Shown here: piece after piece, positions 23,554-55,600 of the stretch | Layout: each line of letters opens with the position of its first letter | Position numbering within the stretch: position 1 is the stretch's first letter | Origin: Pirellulaceae bacterium | GTDB taxonomy: Bacteria; Planctomycetota; Planctomycetia; Pirellulales; Pirellulaceae | Assembly (NCBI GenBank): GCA_044235425.1 | Contig: JBIIHW010000009.1 | Span: 1-64,000, forward strand | Reading direction: 5' to 3' | DNA length: 64,000 bases | The notes under the pieces: model-generated | Databases searched by the model: none | Seen by the model: only the letters and a program-made list of their open reading frames with translations | Told to the model about the DNA's origin: nothing | Position numbers and translations under genes: made by a program

Positions 23554-23661
23554 GTTCCTGGCCGAGTGATTGATGCAGGGCCGAAACGAACACAGCGAAC
23601 CACCGAAATGGTTCGCTGTGCTTCCTATTTTGATTCCCTAGCTCTCTTCCAGCAGCATTGA

Positions 23662-26600
23662 CTACACGACCGTCGTCACGCGGAATCGTTTATTGGCTGT
23701 ATCATTGGTGAGCGTGTACTTGGCCGCACTGGGAGCAGCCTGACCAGGGAAGGTCCCCAAGTTGGGAGCATTGGCACTGGAGTAGGTGTAGGTTCCCTCG
23801 GTCGTCAGTACATCGAACGGTCCTGCATTTTGCGTCGTCCCATACGCCAGCAGATTCAGACGCGATGAACCCGATAAGGTGAGGTTTCCCGCTCCAGTCT
23901 GCACGAAGCGGCCTGCGTTAGAGGTCGGTGATGAGGCCACAAACACGACCTGCAACAGGGCATTTCCTGAGAACGTGACATCCCCACCGCCACTCACGAC
24001 ATATCTGGACGCTCGAACCGAGGCCGCGAACGCAGCCGTGGATGAGTTGTTGAGTGTCAACTGGCCCTGACGGTTGGAAGAATCGACCAGCACGAGGAAG
24101 CCATTCACGTTCAGGGCTCCACTCGTTATGGAGAGACCACCGCCGTACGTACGCATGATATTCCCTGTGATTGCAGCACCGGACTTTAAGGTCACAGTAT
24201 TGGAACCGGCATTGATCGATGATGACGACTGAGTTCCACGAATGTTCGCCCAGACCAAATCGCCGATCGCCACATTACCTCCAGCGTTCAGCGTAAATCC
24301 GCCGCCCGTGAATCCCATCGTGGCGCTCCCTCCCATCGTCGTGCTGACAGTGGTAGGAGCTTGAGTCGTGAACGTGGTGCCGGCGGTCAAGCTACCCGTT
24401 CGTGCTCCTACGGGACCATTGATCAGGATCGTCGTTCCAAAATTCATCGTCAGACTTCCGACCGTCGAGGTGGCCGTAGTGCTCGAGATATCCGCGGTGT
24501 TCGTGGTTCCGCGAATCCATTTCCCAGCCGAGTTCGTGCGATAGGATCCACCAGTCAGCGAGATGTTCCCACCGTTGGTGTAAATATGAGCACTGGGAGC
24601 GAGTTCGCCGTTGACGGCGTTGATCGACAATGTATGAGTGCTGAGTGCGGAGGTACTGGTGAACACGTCGCCTTGCAGGCTGATATTTCCGTCGGATGTC
24701 AAACTGACATTGCCATAATCAGCCTCAATCATCGTGCCACTACCTTGAGTCGTAATGGTGGAGCCGGCTGTTATGGTGACGGCGCCACCCTGAACGGCGG
24801 CCGCCAGATTCACGGTAGAGCTAGCGTCGATTGTCAGTGTACCGCTCGACGAGACCGTTGTCCCATTCGTGGCATTGATCGTAGCCCCCGTCTGCGAACT
24901 GATAGCCGCTCCCGTTAGCGAAATGTTTCCACCAGTTGAGGAGAGCGTGCTGGTGACCGAGATGTTGCTGAATCCGTCGGTTAAGTTACCAGCATCTACC
25001 GTAATAGCGGCGGGACCACCGGCATTCGCTGCGGTTACTTGTCCGAGCGTGGCTGAACCAGTGCTCGTGATCTCAACAGCGCCCTGCGTAGTGGTGATAG
25101 CGCCCGTGCCGGTGAAGGTTCCCGTGGTTGTGATGGTGACGCTACCAGCCGTCAAGGTGCCTGTATTCACATTGCCCGTGTGATTCATCAGCAGCGGTGC
25201 GGACGACGTGTTAATCGTTCCAGCCGATCCACTAAATCCAACGCCCGAAGTGGAAATCTGGCCACCATCGGTCGACCAACTACCCATTTGATTGAGTGAC
25301 TGACCACCGGAGCTGATGGTGATGATCGCGGCGCCGCCATTCGACGCAGACAAATCGTTAATAGTGGCCGAGCCACTGCTGGTGATGCTGATATCACCGG
25401 CGGTGGTCGAAAGGGCGCCCTGGAGCGTGAAGGCGTTTGCTCCCGTCACCGCAAAGGACTTCGCCTGCCCACCTCCAACGCTCACATCCCCCGTTTGTCC
25501 AATCGAAACCGCACCAGTCCCCGTCCCACCCGTGGTGTCCAGAGAGTTCACGGCGAGGTTTGAGCTGTAGGTGCCGGATCCCGTCGTGGTGTAATCGCCG
25601 CCGGTCGTCGTGATCTTAGCTTGCTGCGAAATGGACTCGCTATTGATCGTCAGGTTAGCTCCGTCGGTTTGCAGCCCCTGACTATTATAATCGCCGATGG
25701 TGATAGTATCGTTGCCTATACCACCATTCACTGTAATGCTGCCGCTAGGTCGAGTGAAATTCACGGTTTCGATCGTCGCACCGCTGACGGTGGTCTGAGT
25801 GGCGCTGCTGTTGGCCACCGTTACCGCATCATCGCCACTGGTCAGGTTCAGCGTGGCACTGACAATCGGCATGGTGGTCGTGATCGGCTCTAAGCCCGCG
25901 AAGCTCACCGTGGAACTGTTCGGACCGGTCGTTTCGACACCGCTGGTTCCAACCACACCGAGATTGATGGTGCCAGAACTGGAATTGGTGGCATTGACCA
26001 CAAACGTGTCGAACGAATAGGTGCCATTCGTGGCTCCGTTGCTATCGACCAGAAACAGCGTGTCGGTACCGGTCCCCCCTAAGCCATCGTAGGACGCCGG
26101 AATAGCGACCGGGGTTTCCGCGATGCTGTTGAAGAGCGGGTCACCGTTGGCGTAGTCAATGGTAAGTGAGTCGGTCGAGTCGGCCAAGCCTGAAATGCTG
26201 ATGCTGGTGACGAGTCCAAGCGGCACCAAGTCGGCACCGGTGTTGATCACGTCTCCATTGCCATCCTTCAGCAGGATGTTCGGACCAAACGGAGTTGAAT
26301 TGGTGTCGAGCATCAGGGTGCAGGCCCCCGCACACGAGAAGATCATCGGCTGGTAAACATAGGCAGCCAGATCAAGGAACTGATTTGAAGTCTGATTCGT
26401 GAGGCTCGCGAGCAGCACGATCGACTCACCCTGTGCATCAACTGACGATACGGTGAGCTGATAGCCATTGTTCGTAATGGAATTCAATGGCCCCTTGACC
26501 AACTGGAAGACTTGATTGTTTTCGACGTCGGCGGTGACGGCATTGACATCGATCGTGGAACCATTGGCAAACACCGTCGGCCCGTTCGTTGTCATCGCTG

Positions 26601-28725
26601 GCGAGGGATTGGCAAGGTTGACCGACCAGATGCTCGTCGCACCAAAGGTAGTCGTCACGTTCTGTTGCACGTTGAAAGAGGTCGCGGAAAGCTTGCCGTT
26701 GATCGTGATCGCGCCGGATTGGTTCAGGTCCAACGCACCGACCGTCATCAGGGCATTAGCTGCTAAACTGAATGTGGTGCCACTCGTCGTAAACGAATTC
26801 GCGTTCGAACTGGTGGTACCTAGGGCGATGGCGCCCGTAACGTCAATCGAAACGTTTCCGGTCCCCGCTCGCACTCCTAGCGCACTGAAGGAGCTCCCTG
26901 TTGCAGAGATCTCTTGATTGGCCGTCTGAACATAAGAACTCACATCCACTGAGCCACCTGCCAGGGTGACCGTGCCAGTGCCACTGGTCCGCAAAAAGCC
27001 ACCGATGGTAATGGCGCTAGGGGCGGTAATGGAAATATTGTTGTTCTGCCCATCCACACTTCCTGTGATCGACAAGCTGGTGGCGGAATTCACAACGAAT
27101 CCGCCCGTAAACAAGCCGCTGTTAATGGTAATGCCACCCTGCGTGGAGCTGAGGGTGACCGTGCCACGGTTGGAAGCACCACCCGAGGCGATCGTACCAT
27201 GACCGGCGGGACTGGTGATCGAAGCGCCGGTCACCGCCACAGTTCCCCCGTCATTTTCGATGCGACGATAGGTAACGGTACCAGCACTGGTCAGACTGAT
27301 GTCACCTTTGGCTGGCGACGCATTAGTGGCTTTTACGGTCGCGAGGGTCAACGCGGCGGTGGAGTTCACCGTTACCGTGCCCTTCATCGCCGTCAGGTTC
27401 CCGGAAACGATGGAAATCGAATTGGCATCCAAGGAGATCGCACCAGCCGTAATCGTGGTCGCCACCGAGATACTACCACCCGCTCCAGCCCCACCCGTGA
27501 GCGTCACCGCTCCCCCGACCGATCCGGTCCAGGTGGTGATCCCCCCCGTAGAAATCTGAATCTGCGGCGCATTGATCGTAACCGCAGCCCCTGTGGTCAC
27601 GATATTCGGCAAGGTCACGGAACCAGCCGACGACGTGATTCCCATGGTACCGGTGTTCGCAGCTTGCCAACCCGTCGAAGAGCTGACATTACCAACGGCG
27701 CTCACGGTCAAATTGCCCACATAGGTACGAATACCAGCGGAGCTTAGTGTATGGGTTGTGGCGCTGAACGTACCTGCGGCGGCGTAAGAAGCTAGATTGA
27801 TGCTGTTGGCTGACGAGGTCGTGGGCGTCGTCAGGGTGATGGCGCCAAAGGGAGCCGTCAAACTTGACGATACAGCTCGGAGCGACGCCGATGTCGACGT
27901 CGTATTGATCCGCGAGCCCTCGATGGCGATATTACCACCATCTGTCAGTCCGCTGGCAATCGTCACCAAACCGCTCGCCAAGATCGACAAATTCCCTACG
28001 TTACTGCTGGGCCGCGACGCACTCACCGCACCCGCGGTGACGGCGCCAGCGGAGCGAATCGTGATGTCGCCGGCGGTTGAAGTCAGGTTCGCCAGCGTGA
28101 CACTAGAAGCTCCCTGGGACGCATTACCGATGTTCACAGAGCCAGCCGTAAGCGGCCCAGTGGAACTAATCGTGCCGGTCTGATCCAGCGTCAAAACACC
28201 GGTACCGTTGAGCGTGAATGAATTGGTCGCACCGCGGCTAAAACTGACACCTGTCGCGGTAAAATTACCGCCGTTGACCGCCAGAGCTGTGCTAGCCGTG
28301 ACCGTTTCCGCGGTGATCTGAATGCTCCGCCCTTGAGTGATGCCGCTGAATGTGAAACCAGTCGTGCCCGAAGGCCCGAGCGTCACGGAATCAGTACCTC
28401 CCTGGCCGTTCACAATCAAACCTGTCAGCGAAGCTACCGTGGCCGACTGCACACCGGGAGCGGTTGAGAGGTCAATTGCACTTTCAACACCACCACCGAG
28501 CGGCAAGTTGTGGGCCAGATTTCCGCCTGACCCGAGCGAGATCACAAGCGAATCGTTATTGCTATCGCCAATAAACTCGGCGACTCCACTAGTCAGACTC
28601 ACCCCCCAGGCCATTAAGTCTCTTTTCTCGAGGCCTTCGAAACGCAACTTGCCCTGCAACTTACTCCGCGACAGACGTTGCTTCCGAGCCGCAATCCGAC
28701 CACGATCCTGGGAAAACCGAAACAT
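23662..28725 (-). CDS. giant Thr/Ser/Gly-rich beta-helix-like surface protein (adhesin/autotransporter-associated beta-strand-repeat-like), paralog A
   Basis: 1687 aa with an extreme T/S/G/A/N composition. Repeated 'GxxTLxxxGxxTxTGxxTV'-like strands are present. The N-terminal motif is KLRFEGLEKRDLMA. A conserved central module is present (SCAGACTLML ... DSLTIDYANGDPL ... YDGLGGTGTDTLFLVDSNGATNGTYSFDTF). Confidence 0.7.
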   Translation of the reverse strand: MFRFSQDRGRIAARKQRLSRSKLQGKLRFEGLEKRDLMAWGVSLTSGVAEFIGDSNNDSLVISLGSGGNLAHNLPLGGGVESAIDLSTAPGVQSATVASLTGLIVNGQGGTDSVTLGPSGTTGFTFSGITQGRSIQITAETVTASTALAVNGGNFTATGVSFSRGATNSFTLNGTGVLTLDQTGTISSTGPLTAGSVNIGNASQGASSVTLANLTSTAGDITIRSAGAVTAGAVSASRPSSNVGNLSILASGLVTIASGLTDGGNIAIEGSRINTTSTSASLRAVSSSLTAPFGAITLTTPTTSSANSINLASYAAAGTFSATTHTLSSAGIRTYVGNLTVSAVGNVSSSTGWQAANTGTMGITSSAGSVTLPNIVTTGAAVTINAPQIQISTGGITTWTGSVGGAVTLTGGAGAGGSISVATTITAGAISLDANSISIVSGNLTAMKGTVTVNSTAALTLATVKATNASPAKGDISLTSAGTVTYRRIENDGGTVAVTGASITSPAGHGTIASGGASNRGTVTLSSTQGGITINSGLFTGGFVVNSATSLSITGSVDGQNNNISITAPSAITIGGFLRTSGTGTVTLAGGSVDVSSYVQTANQEISATGSSFSALGVRAGTGNVSIDVTGAIALGTTSSNANSFTTSGTTFSLAANALMTVGALDLNQSGAITINGKLSATSFNVQQNVTTTFGATSIWSVNLANPSPAMTTNGPTVFANGSTIDVNAVTADVENNQVFQLVKGPLNSITNNGYQLTVSSVDAQGESIVLLASLTNQTSNQFLDLAAYVYQPMIFSCAGACTLMLDTNSTPFGPNILLKDGNGDVINTGADLVPLGLVTSISISGLADSTDSLTIDYANGDPLFNSIAETPVAIPASYDGLGGTGTDTLFLVDSNGATNGTYSFDTFVVNATNSSSGTINLGVVGTSGVETTGPNSSTVSFAGLEPITTTMPIVSATLNLTSGDDAVTVANSSATQTTVSGATIETVNFTRPSGSITVNGGIGNDTITIGDYNSQGLQTDGANLTINSESISQQAKITTTGGDYTTTGSGTYSSNLAVNSLDTTGGTGTGAVSIGQTGDVSVGGGQAKSFAVTGANAFTLQGALSTTAGDISITSSGSATINDLSASNGGAAIITISSGGQSLNQMGSWSTDGGQISTSGVGFSGSAGTINTSSAPLLMNHTGNVNTGTLTAGSVTITTTGTFTGTGAITTTQGAVEITSTGSATLGQVTAANAGGPAAITVDAGNLTDGFSNISVTSTLSSTGGNISLTGAAISSQTGATINATNGTTVSSSGTLTIDASSTVNLAAAVQGGAVTITAGSTITTQGSGTMIEADYGNVSLTSDGNISLQGDVFTSTSALSTHTLSINAVNGELAPSAHIYTNGGNISLTGGSYRTNSAGKWIRGTTNTADISSTTATSTVGSLTMNFGTTILINGPVGARTGSLTAGTTFTTQAPTTVSTTMGGSATMGFTGGGFTLNAGGNVAIGDLVWANIRGTQSSSSINAGSNTVTLKSGAAITGNIMRTYGGGLSITSGALNVNGFLVLVDSSNRQGQLTLNNSSTAAFAASVRASRYVVSGGGDVTFSGNALLQVVFVASSPTSNAGRFVQTGAGNLTLSGSSRLNLLAYGTTQNAGPFDVLTTEGTYTYSSANAPNLGTFPGQAAPSAAKYTLTNDTANKRFRVTTVV

Positions 28726-28885
28726 TCGTAACTCCTAAAAAGCACACTCTAAAAACCTGAAACAGGTCACCCGATCCGCCACCACGGCCGAGCAACGACG
28801 CGAGGAACTTAGAAATAGTTCCCTCAGCTAGCATTTGGAACGCGAGTTCAGACGATAATTTATCTCATCGATTCCAAAAAAAAAT

Positions 28886-28926
28886 TTCGACGGCCGGCAT
28901 ATCCGACCGTCGAAATTGTAGGCTCA
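28886..28926 (-). terminator. rho-independent terminator (minus strand) downstream of giant paralog B
   Basis: On the minus strand the hairpin tttcgacgg-N13-ccgtcgaaa is followed by a T9 run (A-run 28886-28894 on plus). Confidence 0.5.
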
Positions 28927-28966
28927 TTCGACACGCGATTCCCAAGCTCGCGAATGGCATCTCCCA

Positions 28967-31900
28967 CTACGGGGCTACACGCACAATAACCCGTTTATTC
29001 GCTGTCTGCACGGAGATGGTGGTCACTTTGGCCGTGAGTCCAGTTTTCGTCGGTGTTGCACCAGCATACGTAAAGGTACCCGTGGTGGTGAGAATTGGAT
29101 AGTCGGTCGTCGTGTTCGACACGATTGAACCGGTGGCGATCCCGTTGATGACAAAGCCACCATTGGAAGCTGGCACCGTAAGATTACCGCCTCCAGTTTG
29201 CGTGAACACAACCTGAGGATTATTCACGTTAACTTGCATCGTCATCTTCGCCGCCGCCGTGCCTGCAAAGGTCATGTTGCCGCCACCCGTTACCGTATAC
29301 GAACGAGCGTTGAGGGATTGATTGATCGTGATCAAACCGGAATGATTCATCGTCAGACTTCCCATACGACTGACGCCTTCAAACAGATTCACCGGCCCAT
29401 TCGTGGTGAGCGTTCCACCGTTCAGGGTTAGATTACCACCAAACGTTCGCACGGCATTCGTGGTCGCCACTGTCTGCCGGAGCCGAATGGCGGCAGTGCC
29501 CGCCGAAAATGTACTGCTGGCTTGGCTTAAGAGGCGAGTATTCATCGTAACGGAGTCGAAGAGGGAAATGCCGCCCGGTGCGTTAATCACAATACCGCCC
29601 ATGTAGGCCACCAGGGTGTCGCCTGCCCCCACCGTTGTGAATGTGGTACCGGCAGTCAAATTCATCGAACCAGCAATCGTCGTCCCATTCAAGCTGATCG
29701 TCGTATCAAAGTTCATCGTCAACGTGCCTGTGGCTCCCGTCGTCGCACTGGCCGTTGCCGCTCGCACAGATTTCGAATTCAAATTCAAGAACGACCCGCC
29801 ACTCAATGTCACCCCCCCACCGTTTGATAAGATACTGCCGCGAGCCTCAAGAATACCTGTTCCAGAGTTGGCAGAAATCGTAGCCGAGCCAGATCCCGTC
29901 GCGGCCGCAATGGCCACATCGCCTCCCAGTGTCATGTTGCCAGCACTGGTTAAACCAATACTACCAACCAAAGCGGTGACGGCACCGCTCGTCGACAAGG
30001 TCGTGGCTGAATTGATCGTCACCGTCCCACCCAGCACTGCACCGGTGAAAGCCGTGGAGCCCGTCGTGGAGGTCACGGACAACGTATTTCCCGTGCCCGA
30101 AGCGGTACCGGTCGAGACCCCTGCCAAAGCCAACTGGCCGCCGGTGATGCTGATGGCCCCAACGGTACCCGTGGAAGCCGTGTTGATCGTACTGGTCGCT
30201 GTTACCGTCCCAGAAGCGTTGATCGTAACGGAACCCTCTCCCGTCGTCCCAGTCGCACTGACCGTCGTCAAATTCACCGTCCCCAGCGCGGTGATGGACA
30301 CCGCACCCGCACTGGCCGCCAAACCTGCCGTGGCGGTGACGTCGGTAGCGGAGTCCAGGGTAATCGAGCTACCGCCGACCGCTGCGGTGCGAATCGCTCC
30401 GGCTGTGGTCGTTATCGAAACCGGTCCAAAGCCCAGCACACTGTTGCCGGCATTCACCGCCACCAGAGTCGCTTGACTACCCGAAATCGTGACGGCACCT
30501 GCATTGGTCGTGATCGCCCCCGTAGCGGTCACTGCTCCAGTGGCTGCGAGGTTGACCGTACCCGGACCAATTGCTCCGGTGGCCGACACACCGGTCACGG
30601 AGAGGGAGCCAGCGGAGATAAAACCTATGTTTCCCGCACCGGCCGTCAAGACCCCGGTGGAAAGGTCGAAGGCCGATTGTATATCGATCGACGAACCCGT
30701 GACCGCTCCTAAGGTTCCCGCTTGAGTAGTCGTTGTAGTCGTGATGCTGACCGGTCCCAGGTTGGGAGACAAACCAGCAGCAATGCTGGTGGAAGTCGAT
30801 GCCAAGCTAATACGATCGGCGTTCAGGGTGATGCCACCGCCGTCCGTCGACATCGCCCCATTGATCGTTAAGGTACCAACTGCGGAAATCGCAATGGTTC
30901 CATTGCTACTCGGCCCCGACACGGCCGCTCCGGCAACTGTGATCGCTTGCGTGCCCGTCAGTTCCAGCGTACCACCGTTCAGATTGATGACGCCGGTCGA
31001 AATTGATCCGGAGGCACTCGACAGAGATAGCGTTGCTGCTGTCACGTTACCCGTCGACGCATTGCCGTCCGACGAAATATTAACTGCACCGCGCGTGGCA
31101 CCGCTGCCGGCGGTTACAGGCCCGAGGGACAACGTCCCGCTGTTGGCCGAAATCGTGATCGTCCCCCCATCGGTCGCCAAAGATTTCGAACCCGCGCCCG
31201 TGATCGAACCACCCGCACTGCTGACCGCAATCGTTCCACTTGGAGCACTCACTGCATTCAGCGAGATATTTCCCCCGGCGGTCACCGTGGCATTACCTTC
31301 AGCGGTGCTGAAGTCGAAAACACTGAGTGTGGTCGCAGCGGTCAGTGACACATCTCCCTTGGCCGTGCCACCCAACATGTTGATGGTACCTTGATTGATC
31401 GTTACCGTGCCGGCTCCCGTTCCCCCTAGCGTGTTGAAGTTCGTCGAATTGCCGATACCGCTGTAGGTTCCCGAGCCACTGTAGTTGAGGCTACCACCCA
31501 ATGTCACCACGGTATTATTTTGAGTGATATTCTCAGAATCAATTGTGACACTGGCACCGTTCGTCTGGTAATCGGTCGTAGTAATGGAGTAGGTGAGCGA
31601 GTCGGTACCGTCACCGCCGTAAATGTTCATCTGTACGCTCGGCTTCGGCGTCGACAACGTGGTGATGGTGCTGCCGTTGAAGCGAATGTTGGTCGCGCTC
31701 AGCTGCGTTAGCGTCACGGCGTCGTTCCCGCTGGTGAAGGTCACCGTTTCAGTGGCGATGGGCAGAGCCGTTGTGACCGCTTTCAGATTCAAATAACCGA
31801 TCTCACCCGGGCTGACCGCGGAAGCCCCTTCCTTCGCACCCGCGGCGATGATCCCCGAATTGGCATCAATCGACGTTGAGGAGAACGTGTCAAACTCATA

Positions 31901-33928
31901 GCTGCCATTCGTCGCCCCGTTTGCATCTACGAAGGTCAGCGTGTCCGTACCAGTTCCCACCCCCCCGTCATACACCGCCGGAAACTTCACACCCTGGTAG
32001 CTCAGTGGATCCCCATTGCTGTAATCCACCGTTAACGTATCGGTGGAATTTGCATTGCCGTTGATCTCGAGGTAGTCGACCAAGCCCACCGGAGTGTTCG
32101 TCGGAATAATGTTCACTCTGGAGCTATTCAGCACCATCAGCGTGGGACCGAAATGCGTCGAATCGGTTCCCAGAACCAACGTACATGATCCACCGCAGTT
32201 GACGACCAGGTTTTCTCGTACGTAGCCGAAAATCTTCAGGCCTTGACCGCCACCCGCCAGAGTCTCTACCTCGGGAATAAAAATCGTATACTCGTCTTCA
32301 TTGTCGATCGGCAAGATCGCCGTCAGGTTCATCCCGTTGTCGATGACTGATCCCGTGGTCTCGACAATCCGATAAATCGAGACATTTTCCACGTTGATCG
32401 CCCTGGGATCAAGATTCACCAGCGCCCCAGAAGCAAACTCCACATTGCCAACCGCACTCAACGCGGGCGTCGCCGTCGCCAAGTTCACATTCCAAACACT
32501 CGTGCTTCCGAAGACAATCTGGCCTGCGCCCGTGCTCGTAATTTTGTTCGTCGTCACTTCGCCGTTAAACGTTGAGGTGCCGCTGTGATCCAGCTTCAGT
32601 TCCGTCATAGGGACCGAAAACTTGCTGCCCGTCGTCTGCGTAAATGTAGTGCCCGATGACGTCAGCGTACCACCGACCCGCACGCTACCAATCGTGACGG
32701 CACCAGTGGCCGTGATCGTCAGATCGTTGCTATCGACTTGCGTTGTGCCGAGCGTCACGCTACTGCCGGATACCGTCACGTTCGCATTATTCGCCACCAA
32801 AAGGCTGGTGGAAACTCCCCCGCCGGCACTCAACGACACCGACGTCGCATCGGGCGCATCGACTCGCCCACCCAGAGCAATTGCTCCATCCGACGACAGG
32901 GACAGGCTACTACCGCGAATGAGGAAGGGCGAGGTGCTTGAAATACCCGCATTGGTGCCAACACTAAAGGAACTTGCATCAATGGGCGAACTGAGCGTTA
33001 CCGTGCCGGTCGCGGCGGGATTAAGCTGCACCGGACCACTGAGGGGCAGGGACCGGTTCGTTAAAATACCGGCAGCACCTGTCGTCGGCCTGCCAACGAT
33101 ATTGTTGCCCGAAATCGTGACCGAGCCACCGTCCGTGAGCACTGCTCCATAGGAAACATCACCGGTCGCCGAGACGGTCACATTGCCAACGGAGGAGCCA
33201 GTCGCAGCCGCAGAAACTCGGGCCGGCAAGTCCAAGTTTCCCGTGGCGGAAATCGAGATATCCCCCGTCAGCGAAGTCCACTCACCCGTACCCGTCACGC
33301 TGCCGCCGGTGAGCGAGATCGATCCGGAACTCACGTTGCCACTCCCCAGTGCGATGCCCGTCGTGGGGTAATTCAGCGACAGAGTTCCGCTATTGGTGGT
33401 CCAAGTCAAGCTGCCGGTCTTGACCAAGCTATTGCCGGACGCCGTGAACGTACCGCCAGAGACATTGATCGCGGTGGAGGTCAGCGTGAGGGTCTCGCTG
33501 GTAATACTGGCGCTGCGACCGCTGGTGATTTGCGTGAACCCAAAGTTGGTGCTCGATCCACTGAACGTGACCGCATCAGTGCCGTCACCGCCGTCAATCG
33601 TTAGCCCCGTGATGACACTCACGGCCCGCGCCTGCACACCCGCCGTGGTGGGGTCGAGGTCAGTGGCGCTTGCCAAGCCGCTAGTGGCCAGAGGAATATT
33701 ATGAGTGAGTACGCCTCCGGAACCCAGCGTGAGCACCAGCGAATCGTTATTCGAATCGCCCTGAAAGGTAACATCATTACCTGTGAGGGAGACATTGAAG
33801 GCCATGAGCGAGCGATCTTCCAGCCCTTCAAACCGTAGCCCGCCACGTCGCGCCCGTGCGTTTAAAGAACGACTCTTGCGAACCAGATTACGACGCCACG
33901 ATTTTTTCAGCCGACTTAACATACTCAC
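28967..33928 (-). CDS. giant Thr/Ser/Gly-rich beta-helix-like surface protein, paralog B
   Basis: 1653 aa. The N-terminal motif is RRGGLRFEGLEDRSLMA, followed by a region aligning to paralog A (DSNNDSLVLTLGSGGVLTHNIPL). The central module is conserved (CGGSCTLVLGTDSTHFGP ... DTLTVDYSNGDPL ... YDGGVGTGTDTLTFVDANGATNGSYEFDTF). Confidence 0.7.
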   Translation of the reverse strand: MSMLSRLKKSWRRNLVRKSRSLNARARRGGLRFEGLEDRSLMAFNVSLTGNDVTFQGDSNNDSLVLTLGSGGVLTHNIPLATSGLASATDLDPTTAGVQARAVSVITGLTIDGGDGTDAVTFSGSSTNFGFTQITSGRSASITSETLTLTSTAINVSGGTFTASGNSLVKTGSLTWTTNSGTLSLNYPTTGIALGSGNVSSGSISLTGGSVTGTGEWTSLTGDISISATGNLDLPARVSAAATGSSVGNVTVSATGDVSYGAVLTDGGSVTISGNNIVGRPTTGAAGILTNRSLPLSGPVQLNPAATGTVTLSSPIDASSFSVGTNAGISSTSPFLIRGSSLSLSSDGAIALGGRVDAPDATSVSLSAGGGVSTSLLVANNANVTVSGSSVTLGTTQVDSNDLTITATGAVTIGSVRVGGTLTSSGTTFTQTTGSKFSVPMTELKLDHSGTSTFNGEVTTNKITSTGAGQIVFGSTSVWNVNLATATPALSAVGNVEFASGALVNLDPRAINVENVSIYRIVETTGSVIDNGMNLTAILPIDNEDEYTIFIPEVETLAGGGQGLKIFGYVRENLVVNCGGSCTLVLGTDSTHFGPTLMVLNSSRVNIIPTNTPVGLVDYLEINGNANSTDTLTVDYSNGDPLSYQGVKFPAVYDGGVGTGTDTLTFVDANGATNGSYEFDTFSSTSIDANSGIIAAGAKEGASAVSPGEIGYLNLKAVTTALPIATETVTFTSGNDAVTLTQLSATNIRFNGSTITTLSTPKPSVQMNIYGGDGTDSLTYSITTTDYQTNGASVTIDSENITQNNTVVTLGGSLNYSGSGTYSGIGNSTNFNTLGGTGAGTVTINQGTINMLGGTAKGDVSLTAATTLSVFDFSTAEGNATVTAGGNISLNAVSAPSGTIAVSSAGGSITGAGSKSLATDGGTITISANSGTLSLGPVTAGSGATRGAVNISSDGNASTGNVTAATLSLSSASGSISTGVINLNGGTLELTGTQAITVAGAAVSGPSSNGTIAISAVGTLTINGAMSTDGGGITLNADRISLASTSTSIAAGLSPNLGPVSITTTTTTQAGTLGAVTGSSIDIQSAFDLSTGVLTAGAGNIGFISAGSLSVTGVSATGAIGPGTVNLAATGAVTATGAITTNAGAVTISGSQATLVAVNAGNSVLGFGPVSITTTAGAIRTAAVGGSSITLDSATDVTATAGLAASAGAVSITALGTVNLTTVSATGTTGEGSVTINASGTVTATSTINTASTGTVGAISITGGQLALAGVSTGTASGTGNTLSVTSTTGSTAFTGAVLGGTVTINSATTLSTSGAVTALVGSIGLTSAGNMTLGGDVAIAAATGSGSATISANSGTGILEARGSILSNGGGVTLSGGSFLNLNSKSVRAATASATTGATGTLTMNFDTTISLNGTTIAGSMNLTAGTTFTTVGAGDTLVAYMGGIVINAPGGISLFDSVTMNTRLLSQASSTFSAGTAAIRLRQTVATTNAVRTFGGNLTLNGGTLTTNGPVNLFEGVSRMGSLTMNHSGLITINQSLNARSYTVTGGGNMTFAGTAAAKMTMQVNVNNPQVVFTQTGGGNLTVPASNGGFVINGIATGSIVSNTTTDYPILTTTGTFTYAGATPTKTGLTAKVTTISVQTANKRVIVRVAP

Positions 33929-34259
33929 CCCTCTTATGACAAAACTGTCAGCTTCTCATCCGCAAGCGATGCCCATCCCTGAAACCCCTCGAGGACTGGC
34001 GACGCCTGGGAAAAAGATGCCCCTGATTGTCTGTAACTGCCCACGGCAACTATTAAATTTGTGTGCCGTCTCTCAAATCTGCCAGCCAATCCTGAAAGTG
34101 GCAGGCGACGATCGATGGCATAGTTGAGCATCGCATCCCGATTCGTGGAAGCGCGATTCGCGATAACGATAACGGCGTCCGTGATAAACGTCAAGCAATG
34201 ATCGTGAATCTTGTAAGCTCACCTTCCGCTATGACGTAAACGCAGCTTTCACCCGATAG

Positions 34260-35294
34260 TTATCGTGCGTTTCCGCCACGAAAGATGCGAAACTTGGTGG
34301 AAAAGAGAAGCTTTACTAGCCACTTCAGGGGACGCACGCGATCCTGCAGTGGGCCACCAACTCCGCTCAGCGCGTCGACGCAGCCGTTGAGTACGGCGTC
34401 CGCCCCTGCTAATCGGCCGGCACTTCGCTCATGCGCGTACATCCAGTAAACGTGCTGCCAATATTGCAGGCGTATTCGCCAGCGTCCGGCGCCCAAGACC
34501 GCCGCTCCGGCATGGGTGCGCACGAGCAATCCCAGGTTTCGCGCATCAAAATAGCGCTGCAGCGGCCGCGAATCGCGCGCAAAGGCACTCGAACCCTTGT
34601 GCCATACGAGCGGCTCGCTGACGATCCCGCAGCGCCACCCCGCGCGACGAGCCCGCAAACAAAATTCGGATTCCTCATGAATCAAAAAGAATCGTTCATC
34701 GATAAGTCCGACTTGGGCGAAGGTCGCGCTGCGGACCCACATCGCGCACCCATTCACCAGTTCGGTTTCCGCCACATGCGGAGGCTCGGTCGTCTGCCAC
34801 GGCACGGCGCGCCGCTGAAAAAATCCGCCGCCCACCGGATCGTTGAAAACCCAGCCGTCGGTGTTCACCTGCTGCGGTTCATCCATCCAGCAGATCACCG
34901 GCCCCAATATCCCGTGCTCGGGATGAGCCGCGGCGGCTGCCCGCATCCGCTCGAGCAGATTCTCGGCCACGATCGTGTCGTTATTCAGCAGTAAGATCGC
35001 CTCCGCTCCATCGTCCACAGCGCGGCGAATTCCTACGTTGTTTCCGCCCGACCAGCCCCTATTCTCCTCGCAGCGAATGATTTCGATCCAATCGTGCGCC
35101 GCTTGAATCTGTGCTACCGGTGACGGCTGAGTGCCATTTTCGACGAGGTAGACGCGCCAGTGGGGATCCCGCACGCGGCGCAGCGAATCCAGGCACTTCA
35201 GCGTGTCATCCAGCCCGCGGTAGCTGAGCACCACCACCGCCACGAGTCCCACCGCCGCTTCCGCGCTCGCTTCCACCCCGCTTGCTGCCCCCAT
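34260..35294 (-). CDS. family 2 glycosyltransferase
   Basis: GT-A fold motifs (VAVVVLSYRG..DTLKCLDSL, YLVENG, LLLNNDT, DxD-like). It is on the same strand as, and upstream of, the two giant genes. The start was set at the internal ATG (35294), preceded by GGAAG. The ORF could extend to 35435. Confidence 0.65.
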   Translation of the reverse strand: MGAASGVEASAEAAVGLVAVVVLSYRGLDDTLKCLDSLRRVRDPHWRVYLVENGTQPSPVAQIQAAHDWIEIIRCEENRGWSGGNNVGIRRAVDDGAEAILLLNNDTIVAENLLERMRAAAAAHPEHGILGPVICWMDEPQQVNTDGWVFNDPVGGGFFQRRAVPWQTTEPPHVAETELVNGCAMWVRSATFAQVGLIDERFFLIHEESEFCLRARRAGWRCGIVSEPLVWHKGSSAFARDSRPLQRYFDARNLGLLVRTHAGAAVLGAGRWRIRLQYWQHVYWMYAHERSAGRLAGADAVLNGCVDALSGVGGPLQDRVRPLKWLVKLLFSTKFRIFRGGNAR

Positions 35295-35519
35295 CCGCTT
35301 CCCCTCATTCCTGGTTCCTGCACCACGCGCCAGTCTGCCGCTCCAGCCACGCCTTCGAGAGACTAACTTGCCGCGCGCAGCCGAGCAATAAGCCAACTCG
35401 CCGAAAAACCTCCGGAATCTCCTGGTGGGAACCACTGCACCGGATTGACCCTAATCGCCAATCGTTCCACAATGCCAACTTTCACCCCAGGTCCGACTGC
35501 GGAGCGTCAAAGGAGCATC

Positions 35520-36977
35520 ATGGTCGAGTTTTCCGGAAAGATCTTGTTCGTCGGCTATGGAGCGGTCGCTCATTGCACCTTGCCGATCCTCCTCCAACAT
35601 GTTCGCGTCCCGCTGACCCAGATTTCGATCCTGGATTTTGAAGATCGAGCCGAGGACTTGCGGCCCTGGAGCGAGCAGGGTGTGAACTGGATTCGAGAGC
35701 GTGTCGAGCGGAGTAATTTACGTTCGCTGCTGGCCAAACATCTGAGCGCCGGCGACCTGCTCATCGACCTGGCTTGGAATATCGATTGCTGCGAAATCCT
35801 GCAGTGGTGCCACGATCACCAGGTCATGTATCTCAACACGTCCGTTGAGGTTTGGGACCCGTATGCCGGTGGCGACAACCAGCACCCGACCGAACGAACG
35901 CTCTACTGGCGGCACATGAACGTGCGGCGGATGATCGGCCGCTGGGAGCAGCCCGGGGCCACCGCTGTCCTGGAACATGGCGCCAACCCCGGACTCATTT
36001 CCCACTTCACTAAACAAGCTCTGCTCGATATCGCCGCCAAACTGGAAGAGGATGGCGAGCTGCAAGGCGCCTACGGAGAGCGGGTGCGACAGCACGTGCG
36101 TGACCAAGCCTTCAACCACCTCGCTCATCAGCTTGGTGTCAAAGTCATTCACTGCAGCGAGCGTGACACGCAAATCTCGAATGTCCCCAAAGAGGTCGAC
36201 GAGTTTGTCAACACGTGGAGCATCGAAGGGTTTCGAGAAGAGGGTACGACGACCGCGGAAATGGGCTGGGGAACTCACGAAAAAGAACTCCCACCGCTCG
36301 CCTTCGAACATGGCGATGGTCCGCGAAATCAGATCTGCCTGGCCAAAATGGGCATGAATACCTGGGTCCGCTCCTGGGTTCCCCATTACTGCATCCGCGG
36401 CATGGTGGTCCGCCACGGAGAAGCGTTCACCATCTCCGATGCACTCACCGTTTGGGAACAGGGCCAGCCGGTCTATCGTCCCACCGTGCACTATGCCTAC
36501 TGTCCCTGTGACGCCGCTCTCGTGTCGCTCAATGAACTGCGCGGCTACGATTACCAGCTGCAGCCGCGGCTGCGCATCATGTCGGATGAAATCACCAGCG
36601 GTGCCGACATCCTGGGAGCACTCGTCATGGGCCACGCCTACCAAAGCTGGTGGACGGGTAGCATCCTGAGCATCGAAGAGTCACGGCGGCTGGTACCCCA
36701 TCAGAATGCCACGACGATGCAAGTTGCCATCTCCGTCGTCGCCGCCGTCACTTGGATGATCGCCAACCCTACCCGCGGCGTCCTGGTTCCCGACCAGCTG
36801 CCGCACGAACATGTGCTGCGGATTTCCAAGCCCTACCTCGGAGAATTTGTCTCCGTGCCGTCCGCCTGGACGCCGCTCAAGCATGTCGCTCACTATTTTG
36901 GCGAGCACGGTCGACCAGACCTTGATCTGGCTGACCCCTGGCAGTTTAAGAACTTCGTCGTGGGCGAACGTGACTGA
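35520..36977 (+). CDS. hss: homospermidine synthase (NAD-dependent)
   Basis: Strong similarity to bacterial HSS blocks: N-terminal Rossmann ILFVGYGAVAHCTLP, then ERDTQ, FVNTWS.EGF, VYRPT.HYAY.PCD, LSIEE.RR, P.QNAT, PYLG and DPWQF. An AGGAG RBS lies 5 nt upstream of ATG 35520. The ORF-track start at 35445 is a TTG. Confidence 0.8.
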   Translation: MVEFSGKILFVGYGAVAHCTLPILLQHVRVPLTQISILDFEDRAEDLRPWSEQGVNWIRERVERSNLRSLLAKHLSAGDLLIDLAWNIDCCEILQWCHDHQVMYLNTSVEVWDPYAGGDNQHPTERTLYWRHMNVRRMIGRWEQPGATAVLEHGANPGLISHFTKQALLDIAAKLEEDGELQGAYGERVRQHVRDQAFNHLAHQLGVKVIHCSERDTQISNVPKEVDEFVNTWSIEGFREEGTTTAEMGWGTHEKELPPLAFEHGDGPRNQICLAKMGMNTWVRSWVPHYCIRGMVVRHGEAFTISDALTVWEQGQPVYRPTVHYAYCPCDAALVSLNELRGYDYQLQPRLRIMSDEITSGADILGALVMGHAYQSWWTGSILSIEESRRLVPHQNATTMQVAISVVAAVTWMIANPTRGVLVPDQLPHEHVLRISKPYLGEFVSVPSAWTPLKHVAHYFGEHGRPDLDLADPWQFKNFVVGERD

Positions 36978-37022: not shown

Positions 37023-38165
37023 ATGATCACACCGCGAAAGTTGCAAAAGCTGGCGCGCGAACATGGCACTCCGTTATTCGTGATTGACCATGATGTAATT
37101 CGTAAAAACTACGCCACTTTTCGGCAGCATCTGCCGCGCGTGCAAGCCTACTACGCCGTGAAAGCCAACTCGGATCCCCTCATCGTCAAGACGCTGTTCG
37201 AGGAGGGAGCGAGCTTTGACGTGGCCAGCATGCCCGAATTCATGCTCGTCCACGACAACATCAAAAAGTTCTCTGCCAAAAAACGGCAGGAATTCATCTG
37301 GGACAAAGTCATCTACGCCAATCCCATCAAGCCCCCCAAGACCCTCGAGGAGCTGAACCAGTATCGACCGTTGGTCACGTACGATAATTTTGAAGAGGTG
37401 AAGAAGATCAAGCGGTATGCCCCCCAGGCGGGCGTGGTGCTGCGTGTCAAAGTGCCCAACACCGGCTCCGTCGTCGAACTCTCCTCCAAGTTTGGGGCCT
37501 CGTCGGGTGACGCCCTGCGCCTGATCGAAGCCGCCTTCGACGCCGGACTCACTGTCGAAGGACTCAGCTTCCACGTCGGAAGCCAGTGTGCCAATCCAAC
37601 CAACTACGTGCAGGCCCTGCAGTTGATGTCGAGCATCTTTCAGGAGGCGTGGCAGCGGGGCTACCCCCAGGTCAAAATACTCGACATCGGCGGCGGCTTT
37701 CCTGTCCCCTACGACGACCAGGTCCCCCCCTTCAAAACCCTCGCCAAAGTGCTCAACTCCGAATTCGACCGCCTGTTTCCCAAAGAAATGGAAATTGTGG
37801 CCGAGCCTGGTCGGTTCCTGGTCGCCACGGCAGCCCACCTGGTTACTGGCATCGTGGGCAAAGCGGTGCGCGACGGGAAACTCTGCTACTACATCGACGA
37901 TGGCGTCTACCATACGTTCTCCGGCGTGATCTTCGACCACATCCAGTATCACCTGCGCTCCTTCCGAGATGGCCCCAAACAGGTCTGCTCGGTGTTTGGC
38001 CCCACCTGCGACGCCCTCGACACCGTATCGTTGGCGGAACATCTGCCTGAGGATCTCGAGATCGGCGAACTGCTCTACAGCCAGAACGTCGGCGCCTACA
38101 CCCACGCCTCGTCGACCTATTTCAACGGTTTCCCACCGGCCAAAGTGATCCACGTGAATCGCTAG
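37023..38165 (+). CDS. ornithine (Orn/Lys/Arg-family) decarboxylase, PLP-dependent alanine-racemase-fold type
   Basis: PLP-lysine motif YAVKAN with FDVAS, the FHVGSQC motif and a C-terminal GAYT motif, all typical of eukaryotic-type ODC. It lies 45 nt downstream of hss. Confidence 0.75.
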   Translation: MITPRKLQKLAREHGTPLFVIDHDVIRKNYATFRQHLPRVQAYYAVKANSDPLIVKTLFEEGASFDVASMPEFMLVHDNIKKFSAKKRQEFIWDKVIYANPIKPPKTLEELNQYRPLVTYDNFEEVKKIKRYAPQAGVVLRVKVPNTGSVVELSSKFGASSGDALRLIEAAFDAGLTVEGLSFHVGSQCANPTNYVQALQLMSSIFQEAWQRGYPQVKILDIGGGFPVPYDDQVPPFKTLAKVLNSEFDRLFPKEMEIVAEPGRFLVATAAHLVTGIVGKAVRDGKLCYYIDDGVYHTFSGVIFDHIQYHLRSFRDGPKQVCSVFGPTCDALDTVSLAEHLPEDLEIGELLYSQNVGAYTHASSTYFNGFPPAKVIHVNR

Positions 38166-52622: not shown

Positions 52623-55600
52623 TCAATTCAGCTGTTCGTTCGCCTCATCCAGATCGCTGACCAGGTCCTCTCCGAACCGCCAGAACCAATCCAGTTCGTC
52701 GCCCCCGAGCAGCGTATCGACTGCGGCATCATCTAAGCAGGTCGTGGTGTCCAGGAGGGCGGTGCCATTGAGCCCTGGGGGCAGCGAGTTATCGGCAGCT
52801 CCAGTTCCGCCCGCACTCACCGAAACCACTCGCAGGTTGCCGATGCGCGCCGCGAAGACCAAGTCCGTGCGTTGCCATTCGGCGATGAGCGACTGATAGG
52901 ACGCTCGACTGACTGTCCCTGCCGCTTCATCCTGATAGGTTTGCAATCCGCCGATGAGGATATCGTCGGCAGAGTCGCCCGAGAGCTGATCGGAGCCGGA
53001 GCCACCGACGAGAATGTCGCGCCCGGCTCCTCCCGCCAGGACATCGTTTCCAGCTCCACCCAGTAGAACATTATCCAGCGAGTTACCTTGCAAGGTATCG
53101 GCCAACGGAGTGCCAACGATATGTTCGATCGGCGTGGCAGAGCCCAAGATGAGCTTGAGCTGCGCGTTCACGGTCTGCAGGCTGGTGCTTCCCAGATCGA
53201 CCGAGACGCCGGTGGTCGATGAGCGGGAAAAATCAAGCCAATCCTGGCCGGAATTATCAACGAGGGTATCGGTTCCTAAGGCCGAATCGGTGTTGAACAG
53301 GTACGTGTCATCGCCGTCACCACCATTGAGCGTGTCATTGCCGCTCGACCCGATCAGCAGATCCTGACCTTGCAGGCCGACGAGTTGATCATCGCCGCTC
53401 CCGCCGGTGAGCTGATTGTCGTTGGTATTGCCTGTGAGCAGGTCGGCCAGCGAGCCACCCGTGAGATTCTCAAAATCGCTTCCCAGTCCGACGTTAATCG
53501 TCAGGTTGGAATGCACCACTTGGGAACCATCGCTGGCGAGACTGAAGGTAATTGCCACGGTCGTGGTGAGCGAAAAATCAATGGTGTCGTTGCCACCAGC
53601 AGCTTCATCCAGTTGATCGGTGCCTTGGAGCGTGTCGACGTCGAATCGATACGTATCGTTGCCCGCTCCACCGCGCAGCAGATTGTTGAGGCGATTGGAG
53701 GTAAACGTGTCGTTGAGTGACGTGCCGTAAACATTTTCAAAGGACACATTCGTACCGAGGTTGAGCGACAGATTGCTGTTGACAACCTGGGCGACCGTCG
53801 TAGCCAAATTGAGACTCACACCGAGCGTTGTGGAACGGGAGAAATCGAGTAGATCGGTGCCTGCCGAATCAGTCAGCGTGTCGGATCCCAGCGCCGTGTC
53901 GGTATTGAAAATGTAGAGATCATCTCCGGCGCCGCCATTGAGCGTGTCATTTCCGGCGAGACCGATCAGCGTATCATCCCCCTCCAAGCCACTTAGCGAA
54001 TTCGCATTCCCATTTCCGGTCAGTAGATCATTGAGTGGCGTGCCAAGAATGTTTTCCAGGACGTTGCCGGCCCCGAGAGTAAGCTGGAGATTCGCATTCA
54101 CCGTTTGGGGCGCGGCTTGACTGAGATCCATCGTTACGGGTAGCAGCAGCGTGCTGGAAAAATCAAGTGTGTCGGTACCACCGCTGGCGGTCTCCGTGAC
54201 TGAGTCCGTACCTAAGTCGGTATCGGTATCAAACACAAAGCGATCATTTCCCGTACCGCCAATCAACTGATCGTCGCCGCCCAGTCCCGTGATCACATCG
54301 TCACCCGCGCCACCATTGATCACATTGGCCGCGTCATTGCCCGTCAAGTTATCATTTAAAGAACCACCGGTCAGGTTTTCAAAACTAAGATCCGTCCCCA
54401 GATCGATGGTGAGATTCGCATTAATCACCTGGATGCCGCTGGACAACAAACTGAAGGTCACCGGCACGCTGGTGGTCAGCGAGAAGTCGAGCGTATCGTT
54501 GCCGGAGCCCGCTTCGACCAGTCGGTCACGACCCTGGGCGCTTCCCACGTTGAAGCGATAGGTATCATTGCCCAGCCCGCCCATTAACACATTATCGGCT
54601 TGGTTACCGACGAGCGTATCGTTGTTGTTCGTGCCAATCACGTTTTCGATCAGACTGGAGGCGGTCAACGTGAGCCCCAAATTGGCATTCACCGTTTGCG
54701 CCGTCGTTTGGCTCAGATTGACAGCAACCCCGAGCAGCGTGCTGTCCGAAAAATCGAGTGTGTCCATTCCGGCGGAATCATTGATCGTCTCACTGCCAAG
54801 TGCGGTATTGGTGCCGAAGCGGTACGTATCATCTCCTTCGCCGCCATTGAGCGTATCACTGCCACCGAGACCGGACAGCGAGTCGTTACCAGCACCGCCA
54901 CTTAAGTTGTTCGCGTTCGTATTCCCCAAGATGGTGTCATTCAGCGGACTACCCACTACATTTTCTAACTGATCATTCGCCGTGAGGATCAAACTCAAGT
55001 TGCTGTTGATCACCTGGGCTGTTGTTTGGGAAAGATTGACTGCAATGGGCAAGAGTGTCCCGGTCGAAAAATCGAGCGTATCGCCGGTCCCTGACGTGTC
55101 ACTGATCGAATCGGTGTCCAGGTTGGTATCGGTGTTGAACAGATAGCGATCATTCCCAAGGCCGCCGATGAGCGAGTCGTCGCCGGCCAACCCGACCAGC
55201 AGATCATCGCCTCCATTGCCGGTCAGGACATTTTTACGCGCGTTACCGGTGAGCGAATCAGCGAGGGAGCCGCCGATGAGATTTTCAAAATTCGAGGAAT
55301 CAACCAGGTCGACGGTCAAATTCGCATTCACCACTTGCAAGCCATCCTGCGACAGCGAGAACGTCACTCCGACTGTGGTGGTGAGCGAGAAGTCGATGGT
55401 GTCGTTGCCGGTACCCGATTCCTGGATGAAGTCGACATCCTGGTACGTGTCCACATCAAATCGGTACGTATCATCCCCCAAGCCACCCCGCAAGTAATTG
55501 CTGAGTCGGTTGGAGGTCAGCGTATCATTGAGGGACGTGCCATGGACGTTCTCAAAGACCGCCGTCGTTCCCAGGTTCAAAATCAGATTACTGTTGACGG

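What the first reader, a model, noticed from the sequence alone, without database searches (positions are those of the whole stretch)
23662..35294. Tandem paralogous giant beta-helix-like surface proteins with a GT2 glycosyltransferase upstream
Two ~1650-1690-aa proteins lie head-to-tail on the minus strand. Both are extremely rich in Thr, Ser, Gly and Asn, consistent with beta-helix/adhesin-like strands. They are clearly duplicated but strongly diverged. Each keeps a conserved ~130-aa central module: C-x3-C, then 'DTLTVDYSNGDPL', then 'YDG.GGTGTDTLxxVDxNGATNGxYxFDTF'. Each has its own promoter gap, and paralog B has its own hairpin/T-run terminator. A family-2 glycosyltransferase sits directly upstream on the same strand. 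This suggests the Thr/Ser-rich giants may be glycosylated, or that the locus makes a glycan-decorated surface structure. The GT2-giant link rests on adjacency and strand only. None of these giants is likely to have a characterised function.
Basis: partly seen in the sequence, partly recalled or inferred. Interest (0 to 1): 0.7.

Follow-up and report, generated by a model that had tools for sequence, protein, structure and literature searches.

The report
Paired planctomycete beta-helix surface proteins
Two neighbouring duplicated genes encode very long rod-shaped (beta-helix) proteins carrying the planctomycete surface-export tag, an ordinary kind of gene for this phylum, and the neighbouring sugar-transferase gene cannot be shown to act on them.

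Summary
Two minus-strand ORFs of 1687 aa (A) and 1653 aa (B) are diverged paralogues. T, G, S and A make up 54% of their residues. Each has one conserved central module. A strong terminator separates them, and a 344-aa GT2 lies 331 bp upstream.

The core of the central module, about 190 aa, is a widespread extracellular domain with no Pfam or NCBIfam model. It matches 943 protein clusters and has no close solved structure. The full-length family is tiny, about four lineages, and evolves fast: 51-55% identity where flanking housekeeping genes keep 92-94%.

The GT2 belongs to a large planctomycete family. In all seven outgroup loci examined, its 48-55% identical homologues sit inside multi-glycosyltransferase polysaccharide clusters. 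GT2-giant adjacency is kept only in close relatives that share the wider synteny.

The most likely reading is calcium-stabilised surface fibres or adhesins. Glycosylation by the GT2 is unproven. This is a new member of a known kind, of modest interest.

The parts
23662..28725 (-). Giant paralogue A, 1687 aa. Layout: export motif, short N-module, beta-helix I, cap I, central module, beta-helix II, cap II.
28967..33928 (-). Giant paralogue B, 1653 aa (1651 aa from the ATG at 33922). Same layout as A, with a shorter helix I and a longer helix II.
28609..28647 (-). A residues 27-39, LRFEGLEKRDLMA: planctomycete N-terminal export / cell-surface motif. It follows a basic stretch, and there is no hydrophobic Sec h-region.
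   Evidence: (PF07595, 14.2 bits, below cut-off)
33800..33838 (-). B residues 31-43, LRFEGLEDRSLMA: the same export motif.
26686..28305 (-). A beta-helix I (approx. aa 141-680), irregular T/S/G/N-rich coils. Only aa 488-680 were modelled.
26383..26685 (-). A cap I (approx. aa 681-781), weakly similar to the C-terminal cap.
   Evidence: hhalign, 81.5% probability
25621..26382 (-). A central module (aa 782-1035). The family-specific Cx3C lead-in is aa 782-844. The widespread ~190-aa core is aa 845-1035.
31517..32242 (-). B central module (aa 563-804).
26320..26334 (-). A Cx3C (C798, C802), the only cysteines in the protein.
32183..32197 (-). B Cx3C (C578, C582), the only cysteines in the protein.
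26053..26079 (-). A GGTGTDTLF: an isolated RTX-type nonapeptide (GGxGxDxUx) inside the module.
25699..25725 (-). A GGIGNDTIT: a second isolated RTX-type nonapeptide at the module end.
33566..33592 (-). B GGDGTDAVT: RTX-type nonapeptide in the N-module.
31592..31618 (-). B GGDGTDSLT: RTX-type nonapeptide at the module end.
24046..25605 (-). A beta-helix II (approx. aa 1041-1560). About three short strands per coil of roughly 18-23 residues.
23665..24045 (-). A cap II (approx. aa 1561-1687), conserved between the paralogues. It ends ...TANKR.... There is no membrane anchor or beta-barrel.
28883..28917 (-). Intrinsic terminator after B: 15-bp stem plus U9.
23591..23620 (.). Hairpin of 12-14 bp between A and the convergent oxidoreductase gene. 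Probably a terminator usable on both strands, but the U-tract on the minus strand is weak.
34260..35294 (-). GT2 glycosyltransferase, 344 aa, soluble with no TM segment. It lies 331 bp upstream of B. A functional link to the giants is not established.

Best explanation
A and B are duplicated, fast-evolving, exported cell-surface proteins of a planctomycete. The N-terminal basic stretch plus LxFExLExRxLMA is the phylum's proposed export / cell-surface signal.

The body of each protein is a long right-handed parallel beta-helix rod. It is built as two units, each consisting of a module, a helix and a cap. With about 70 coils at 4.8 A rise, the rod would be roughly 30-35 nm long; that figure is my estimate.

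The central ~190-aa module is a beta-roll-like domain with isolated GGxGxD motifs. It probably binds Ca2+ and acts as a rigid joint or a ligand-binding site. The single Cx3C pair fits an oxidising, extracytoplasmic location.

The rods most likely work as adhesive or structural surface fibres. The two genes are transcribed separately.

The upstream GT2 is most likely a lipid-linked polysaccharide (O-antigen or EPS type) glycosyltransferase. Its position next to the giants is conserved only within this narrow lineage.

Shown: the ORFs, the paralogy, the predicted fold, the motif, the domain's distribution and the gene contexts. Inferred: export, Ca2+ binding, adhesion, and the GT2's substrate.
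For: Fold:
- AF2 of A 488-1687 has pLDDT 77.3, 50% strand and a strand periodicity of ~19-21 residues.

Export motif:
- The motif matches the consensus RRLxxExLExRxLLA, described as a putative planctomycete export signal. Tuwongella immobilis has 52 such genes, some of whose products were found only in the SDS-soluble fraction (PMC8567305).
- In all six frames of the window the motif regex hits only three times. Each hit is at the N-terminus of a giant ORF.

Central module:
- AF2 with a 41-sequence alignment gives pLDDT 86.4 and pTM 0.86, all-beta.
- The module matches 943 clusters at E<=1e-3. It occurs 1-8 times in proteins of up to 7004 aa, alongside He_PIG, cadherin-like, Big_9, RTX and PATR domains.

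Two-unit build: hhalign supports the repeated layout.

Fast evolution: A and B are 55% and 51% identical to their L001 orthologues, against 92-94% for the flanking genes.

Separate transcription: a strong terminator lies between B and A.

Phylum background: planctomycetes carry dozens of giant genes, thought to be mostly surface proteins (PMC5177795).

GT2: its homologues lie in multi-GT polysaccharide clusters, several with Wzm/Wzt and Wzy_C.
Against: - No experiment shows export or adhesion.
- The Pfam export-motif HMM scores below its cut-off for A (14.2 against 25.5 bits) and gives no hit for B.
- There is no classical signal peptide, and no secretion partner gene lies in the 64-kb window.
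- The model of the long tile comes from only 6 sequences (pTM 0.52), and Foldseek found no significant PDB match.
- The GT2 is not inside a polysaccharide cluster here.
- GT2-B-A adjacency is conserved in three related genomes, so a functional link cannot be excluded.
Confidence: 0.6

Rival explanations
1. One reading: the soluble GT2 glycosylates the Thr/Ser-rich beta-helices before or during export. This would be a functional analogue of HMW1C-HMW1, EtpC-EtpA or TibC-TibA.
For: - The GT2 is on the same strand, immediately upstream, and has no TM segment.
- The GT2-B-A order is kept in L001, L003 and L004.
- The best structural matches, EtpA and HMW1, are adhesins known to be glycosylated by enzymes encoded next to them. 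That fact is established knowledge, not tested here.
- The GT2 evolves faster (74% identity) than the flanking housekeeping genes.
Against: - The GT2 family's other members lie in lipid-linked polysaccharide clusters.
- A 331-bp gap with promoter-like sites separates the GT2 from B.
- Adjacency is seen only where the wider synteny is also kept.
- Distant relatives lack this GT2.
- The known adhesin glycosyltransferases belong to other GT families.
- NxS/T sequons are not enriched.
Confidence: 0.12
2. A and B bind or process a surface polysaccharide. They would anchor or trim the glycan that the GT2 helps to build, as tailspike-like beta-helix proteins do in EPS loci.
For: - In the nearest outgroup GT2 clade (L011, L017), the GT2 is followed on the same strand by an export-tagged protein with Beta_helix/NosD and Golvesin_C domains.
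- Other GT2 clusters carry PcRGLX-type lyase-like proteins.
- The distant full-length relative P0016 lies 154 bp downstream of a polysaccharide deacetylase, at the end of a glycan cluster.
Against: - A and B show no sequence similarity to those beta-helix enzymes.
- No catalytic or CBM domain was detected.
- Beta-helix matches to depolymerases reflect the shared fold only.
- There are only two or three independent adjacency events.
Confidence: 0.15
3. A and B have another surface role, such as an S-layer-like coat or envelope scaffold, or an ice- or mineral-binding Thr-rich beta-helix, rather than adhesion.
- RsaA appears among the weak Foldseek hits.
- Thr is about 16% of residues.
Against: - No regular TxT/TxN ladder or fixed repeat period is visible in the sequence.
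- No lattice-forming domains were found.
- The matches are generic to the fold.
Confidence: 0.08

Closest known systems
Planctomycete 'giant gene' surface proteins carrying the N-terminal Planc_extracel (PF07595) motif, which I recall NCBI names 'LEPR-XLL'
   Same: - N-terminal basic stretch followed by LxxExLExRxL(L/M)A.
- Very long, repetitive, predicted extracellular body.
- Lineage-specific and fast-evolving.
- A third such gene, the RTX-rich 1948-aa ORF, lies in the same window.
   Different: - The HMM score is below Pfam's cut-off.
- This particular full-length family has only about four known lineages.
- The function of the motif itself is not proven experimentally.
Two-partner-secretion (type Vb) adhesins: EtpA, HMW1, FHA, HxuA
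   Same: - Long right-handed beta-helix shaft with coils of about 20 residues.
- The T/S/G/N-rich composition is also shared, as I recall.
   Different: - No TPS domain (no Haemagg_act hit, no NPNL/NPNGI motifs).
- No TpsB gene nearby.
- A different N-terminal signal.
- The neighbouring glycosyltransferase is GT2, not GT41.
RTX beta-roll domains (CyaA blocks, serralysin / LipA C-terminal domains)
   Same: - The module contains GGxGxDxUx nonapeptides.
   Different: - The nonapeptides are isolated, 2-3 per protein, and not in tandem arrays.
- No HemolysinCabind Pfam hit.
- No C-terminal T1SS context.
WbbL/GlfT1-like GT2 enzymes of ABC-transporter-dependent polysaccharide pathways
   Same: - The GT2 has the Glycos_transf_2 fold.
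- Its weak best NCBIfam matches are rhamnosyltransferase and GlfT1.
- Homologues at 48-55% identity sit in multi-GT clusters, several with Wzm/Wzt and a Wzy_C protein.
   Different: - All NCBIfam scores are far below their cut-offs (57.9 against 200.55 bits).
- No transporter or other GT genes lie next to it in this window.

Membership tests
Planc_extracel (PF07595), which I recall NCBI names 'LEPR-XLL': N-terminal export-motif proteins | Consensus RRLxxExLExRxLLA within about the first 50 residues | tested here: met
   A 27-39 is LRFEGLEKRDLMA and B 31-43 is LRFEGLEDRSLMA. The regex hits only at the N-termini of three giant ORFs in the window. The consensus is taken from PMC8567305.
Planc_extracel (PF07595), which I recall NCBI names 'LEPR-XLL': N-terminal export-motif proteins | Score at or above Pfam's gathering threshold (25.5 bits) | tested here: not met
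   A scores 14.2 bits, E 0.035. B has no hit at E<=0.1. NCBIfam gives no hit. The model is only 20 positions long, so sub-threshold scores are common.
Right-handed parallel beta-helix (pectin-lyase-like / adhesin shaft) fold | Three short strands per coil stacked into a solenoid, with structural similarity to solved beta-helices | tested here: met
Two-partner secretion TpsA exoproteins | N-terminal TPS domain (PF05860; NPNL / NPNGI motifs) | tested here: not met
   No Pfam hit and no NPN motif in A or B.
Two-partner secretion TpsA exoproteins | Adjacent TpsB (POTRA plus beta-barrel) gene | tested here: not met
   None among the ORFs of the 64-kb window scanned with Pfam.
Classical autotransporters (type Va) | C-terminal beta-barrel translocator, and PATR repeats | tested here: not met
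   No Pfam hit. The C-terminus is a conserved beta-helix cap ending ...TANKR....
RTX / T1SS proteins | Tandem arrays of GGxGxDxUx (PF00353) and a C-terminal T1SS signal with ABC/MFP genes | tested here: not met
   Only 2-3 isolated nonapeptides per protein, no PF00353 hit, and no T1SS genes in the window.
Glycosyltransferase family 2 | Glycos_transf_2 domain above the Pfam threshold | tested here: met
   PF00535 scores 53.1 bits against 23.3. PF13641 scores 39.5 against 27.
Adhesin-specific glycosyltransferase pairs (HMW1C/EtpC, TibC/Aah) | Enzyme of the GT41 or heptosyltransferase type encoded beside its beta-helix substrate | tested here: not met
   The enzyme here is GT2. Only the adjacency is shared.
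Adhesin-specific glycosyltransferase pairs (HMW1C/EtpC, TibC/Aah) | Demonstrated glycan on the adhesin that depends on the enzyme | not testable with these tools
   Needs glycoproteomics and a knockout.
ABC-transporter-dependent polysaccharide cluster glycosyltransferase | Located in a cluster with Wzm/Wzt, other GTs and a Wzy_C/ligase-like gene | tested here: not met
   Met for the homologues: all 7 outgroup loci are multi-GT clusters, and several carry Wzm/Wzt and Wzy_C. Not met in this window, where the GT2 is solitary between polyamine genes and B.

The most novel reading that the evidence does not exclude
The GT2 and the beta-helix giants form a functional pair. There are two versions. 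In the first, a cytoplasmic GT2-type enzyme decorates a Thr/Ser-rich beta-helix adhesin, which would be a GT2 counterpart of HMW1C/EtpC/TibC. In the second, the rods are glycan-binding scaffolds for the polysaccharide the GT2 helps to build. In both versions, the ~190-aa module, which has no Pfam or NCBIfam model and no close solved structure, would be a new Ca2+-dependent ligand-binding domain shared by hundreds of giant surface proteins, mostly planctomycete where a source names the organism.
Probability: 0.12. Interest if true: 0.6.

Novelty: new member of a known kind. Interest (0 to 1): 0.3.

Why it matters
Planctomycete giant surface proteins are numerous and almost entirely uncharacterised. 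This locus adds a well-delimited example with a clear layout: export motif, then two module-helix-cap units.

It also delimits a widespread ~190-aa extracellular domain with a confident predicted fold that neither Pfam nor NCBIfam covers and that has no close solved structure. That domain could be turned into a family model and a structural target.

The GT2 question matters only if experiments show a link. In that case it would extend adhesin glycosylation to a new enzyme family and a new phylum.

Tried and rejected
- Word-indexed homologue search. Whole A returned only 5 proteins, and the module alignment returned only 7 weak hits, not even the query proteins. Low-complexity words swamp the prefilter. 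The exhaustive HMMER search was needed.
The 5-sequence alignment gave 7 loci.
- Hydrophobic-residue autocorrelation showed no clean repeat period in the sequence. Periodicity appears only in the predicted strands.
- The afdb50 library was unavailable.
- PDB sequence searches found nothing for A, the module profile or the GT2.
- Rfam found nothing in the window.
- The literature search for 'LEPR-XLL' was uninformative.
- TPS, autotransporter and RTX/T1SS memberships were considered and rejected on failed defining features.
- A polymorphic-toxin reading was rejected because the C-terminus is a cap conserved between the paralogues, with no variable toxin tip.
Full report
**1. Observation**

The minus strand carries three ORFs. 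ORF A is 23662..28725, 1687 aa. ORF B is 28967..33928, 1653 aa, or 1651 aa from the ATG at 33922. The GT2 gene is 34260..35294, 344 aa, with a maximal ORF reaching 35435.

T, G, S and A make up about 54% of both giants, and N is about 7%. They are true paralogues. BLASTP without composition correction aligns A 315-1680 with B 81-1646 at 29% identity, E 2e-166. With correction the C-terminal ~600 aa still give E 2e-40. MAFFT shows three well-conserved islands: the N-terminus, a central block and the C-terminal ~130 aa.

The Cx3C uses the only two cysteines of each protein.

The intergenic gaps are 331 bp (GT2-B) and 241 bp (B-A). A 15-bp hairpin followed by U9 sits 50 bp after B's stop codon. 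Its dG is -24.3 kcal/mol, z -4.5, and none of 200 shuffles folds as well. A is followed by a hairpin of 12-14 bp shared with the convergent oxidoreductase gene.

**2. What the giants are**

*No family match by sequence.* Pfam, NCBIfam and PDB sequence searches find nothing in A or B. The one exception is a sub-threshold Planc_extracel hit at A 25-39.

*Export motif.* Both proteins start with a basic stretch followed by LRFEGLE(K/D)R(D/S)LMA. This fits the consensus RRLxxExLExRxLLA, described as a putative planctomycete N-terminal export / cell-surface signal. Tuwongella immobilis has 52 such genes; 20 of the products were detected, and 8 of those only in the SDS-soluble fraction (PMC8567305). 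There is no hydrophobic Sec-type h-region. A relaxed regex for the motif hits only three times in all six frames of the window. Each hit lies at the N-terminus of a giant ORF: A, B and the 1948-aa RTX protein at 52623..58469.

**3. Architecture**

Profile-profile comparison suggests two tandem units, each a module followed by a helix and a cap:
- The end of the N-terminal region matches the end of the central module (79.5% probability).
- Cap I matches cap II (81.5%).
- Helix I matches helix II (99.3%, though composition inflates this).

A deep-module HMM finds one full module per protein, at A 789-1034 and B 569-803. It also finds weak partial matches in B's N-terminus.

**4. The central module**

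An exhaustive HMMER search of 1.84 billion representative proteins found 943 clusters at E<=1e-3, 324 at E<=1e-10 and 14 at E<=1e-30. The shared core covers profile positions ~50-240, from 'S.DSLTIDxxxGNPIP' to 'PtgSLtInGGxGxDtI'. It occurs 1-8 times in proteins of up to 7004 aa.

The Cx3C lead-in is confined to closer relatives. The named sources are mostly Planctomycetota (Gimesia, Pirellulaceae, Gemmataceae, Planctomycetaceae), plus one Chthoniobacterales protein. The sources call these proteins hypothetical, 'beta strand repeat-containing' or 'RTX toxin-like'.

No Pfam model covers the module. It co-occurs with He_PIG, cadherin-like, Big_9, RTX and PATR domains, which fits an extracellular role.

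**5. Family size and rate**

Outside the module, only P0002, P0003, P0013 and P0016 match A's N- and C-terminal parts. That makes about four lineages.

Between the window and contig L001, identities are:

| Protein | Identity |
|---|---|
| Ornithine-decarboxylase-like | 94% |
| Saccharopine-dehydrogenase-like | 92% |
| GT2 | 74% |
| A | 55% |
| B | 51% |

. The giants evolve quickly, as exposed surface proteins usually do. Planctomycete genomes are known to hold dozens of giant genes, thought to be mostly surface proteins (PMC5177795).

**6. The GT2**

It is a soluble Glycos_transf_2 protein. Its weak best NCBIfam matches are rhamnosyltransferase and GlfT1, both far below threshold. It has 953 homologues at E<=1e-20, many at about 50% identity and mostly from planctomycetes where named.

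I examined seven loci holding homologues 48-55% identical to it. All seven are multi-glycosyltransferase clusters. Several also carry a Wzm/Wzt ABC transporter, a Wzy_C protein, methyltransferases and acetyltransferases. This points to lipid-linked polysaccharide assembly rather than protein glycosylation.

The GT2-B-A order is kept only in L001, L003 and L004, which also keep the flanking synteny where the contig extends far enough. More distant module-bearing loci have no homologue of this GT2 within 10 kb.

Two hints keep a looser glycan link alive:
- In the nearest outgroup GT2 clade (P0164 and P0165, 80% identical to each other), the GT2 is followed on the same strand by an export-tagged protein with Beta_helix/NosD and Golvesin_C domains. 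That protein is unrelated in sequence to A and B.
- The most distant full-length relative, P0016, lies 154 bp downstream of a polysaccharide deacetylase. This is at the end of a different glycan cluster that contains a membrane GT2, two AsnB-like genes, an ACP and an AMP-ligase.

These are two or three events, too few to decide.

**7. Comparison with known systems**

The shafts look like TpsA or autotransporter adhesins, but several defining features are absent:
- the TPS domain and its NPNL/NPNGI motifs
- a TpsB gene
- a C-terminal barrel
- PATR repeats
- RTX arrays
- T1SS genes

. The best description is planctomycete export-motif beta-helix surface proteins. The HMW1C/EtpC/TibC analogy for the GT2 rests on adjacency alone, and the enzyme family differs.

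**8. Verdict**

The locus is real and correctly described. The beta-helix reading is supported. The central module is in fact a widespread domain without a Pfam or NCBIfam model. The GT2-glycosylation idea remains unproven and is less likely than an unrelated or only loosely related polysaccharide role. This is a new member of a known kind, and I score interest at 0.3.

Noticed in passing
window 52623-58469 (-): A 1948-aa protein with 21 RTX nonapeptide stretches (PF00353, E 6.8e-100). It has the same planctomycete N-terminal motif (LSCEFLEQRQVMAA). RTX repeats are therefore paired here with an N-terminal tag rather than the usual C-terminal T1SS signal, and no T1SS genes are nearby.
   Followed up: partly
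window 35445-36977 (+) and 37023-38165 (+): A saccharopine-dehydrogenase-like gene and an Orn/DAP-decarboxylase-like gene lie divergent from the GT2. My inference is that they are a carboxy(nor)spermidine dehydrogenase / decarboxylase polyamine pair. They are 92-94% identical in contig L001.
   Followed up: partly
window 38420-42832 (+): A 1470-aa protein with an N-terminal hydrophobic signal-like segment. It has PANPAN-type and SNNG(S/N)A low-complexity repeats and no Pfam or NCBIfam hit.
   Followed up: no
L011 9206-11680 and L017 2495-5719: In the nearest outgroup clade of the GT2, the GT2 is followed by a protein with Planc_extracel, Beta_helix/NosD and Golvesin_C domains. It is probably a secreted carbohydrate-active enzyme. 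The two copies are 49% identical to each other and unrelated in sequence to A and B.
   Followed up: partly
L002 10001-16384 (Gimesia algae CP036343.1): A 2127-aa protein with two copies of the module and long near-identical internal repeats. As called, it lacks the N-terminal export motif. It is preceded by an ECF sigma factor and a Ser/Thr kinase, and followed by a 492-aa TadE-domain protein.
   Followed up: no
L015 991-9847: Upstream of the distant relative P0016 lies a glycan-modification cluster. It holds a membrane GT2, a hexapeptide acetyltransferase, an ACP, an AMP-ligase, two asparagine-synthase-like genes, an NAD-synthase-like gene and a polysaccharide deacetylase. A 943-aa export-motif protein lies further downstream.
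   Followed up: no
window 49601-50755 (+) and 2355-3788 (+): A DUF1559 protein with an N-terminal methylation (pilin-like) motif, and a DUF1501 protein. From memory, both families are typical of planctomycetes, consistent with the window's origin.
   Followed up: no
L006 10001-10621: The tblastn module match in this Planctomycetaceae MAG lies in a stretch with no complete ORF of 150 aa or more on that strand. It could be a gene fragment, a frameshift or a masked region.
   Followed up: no
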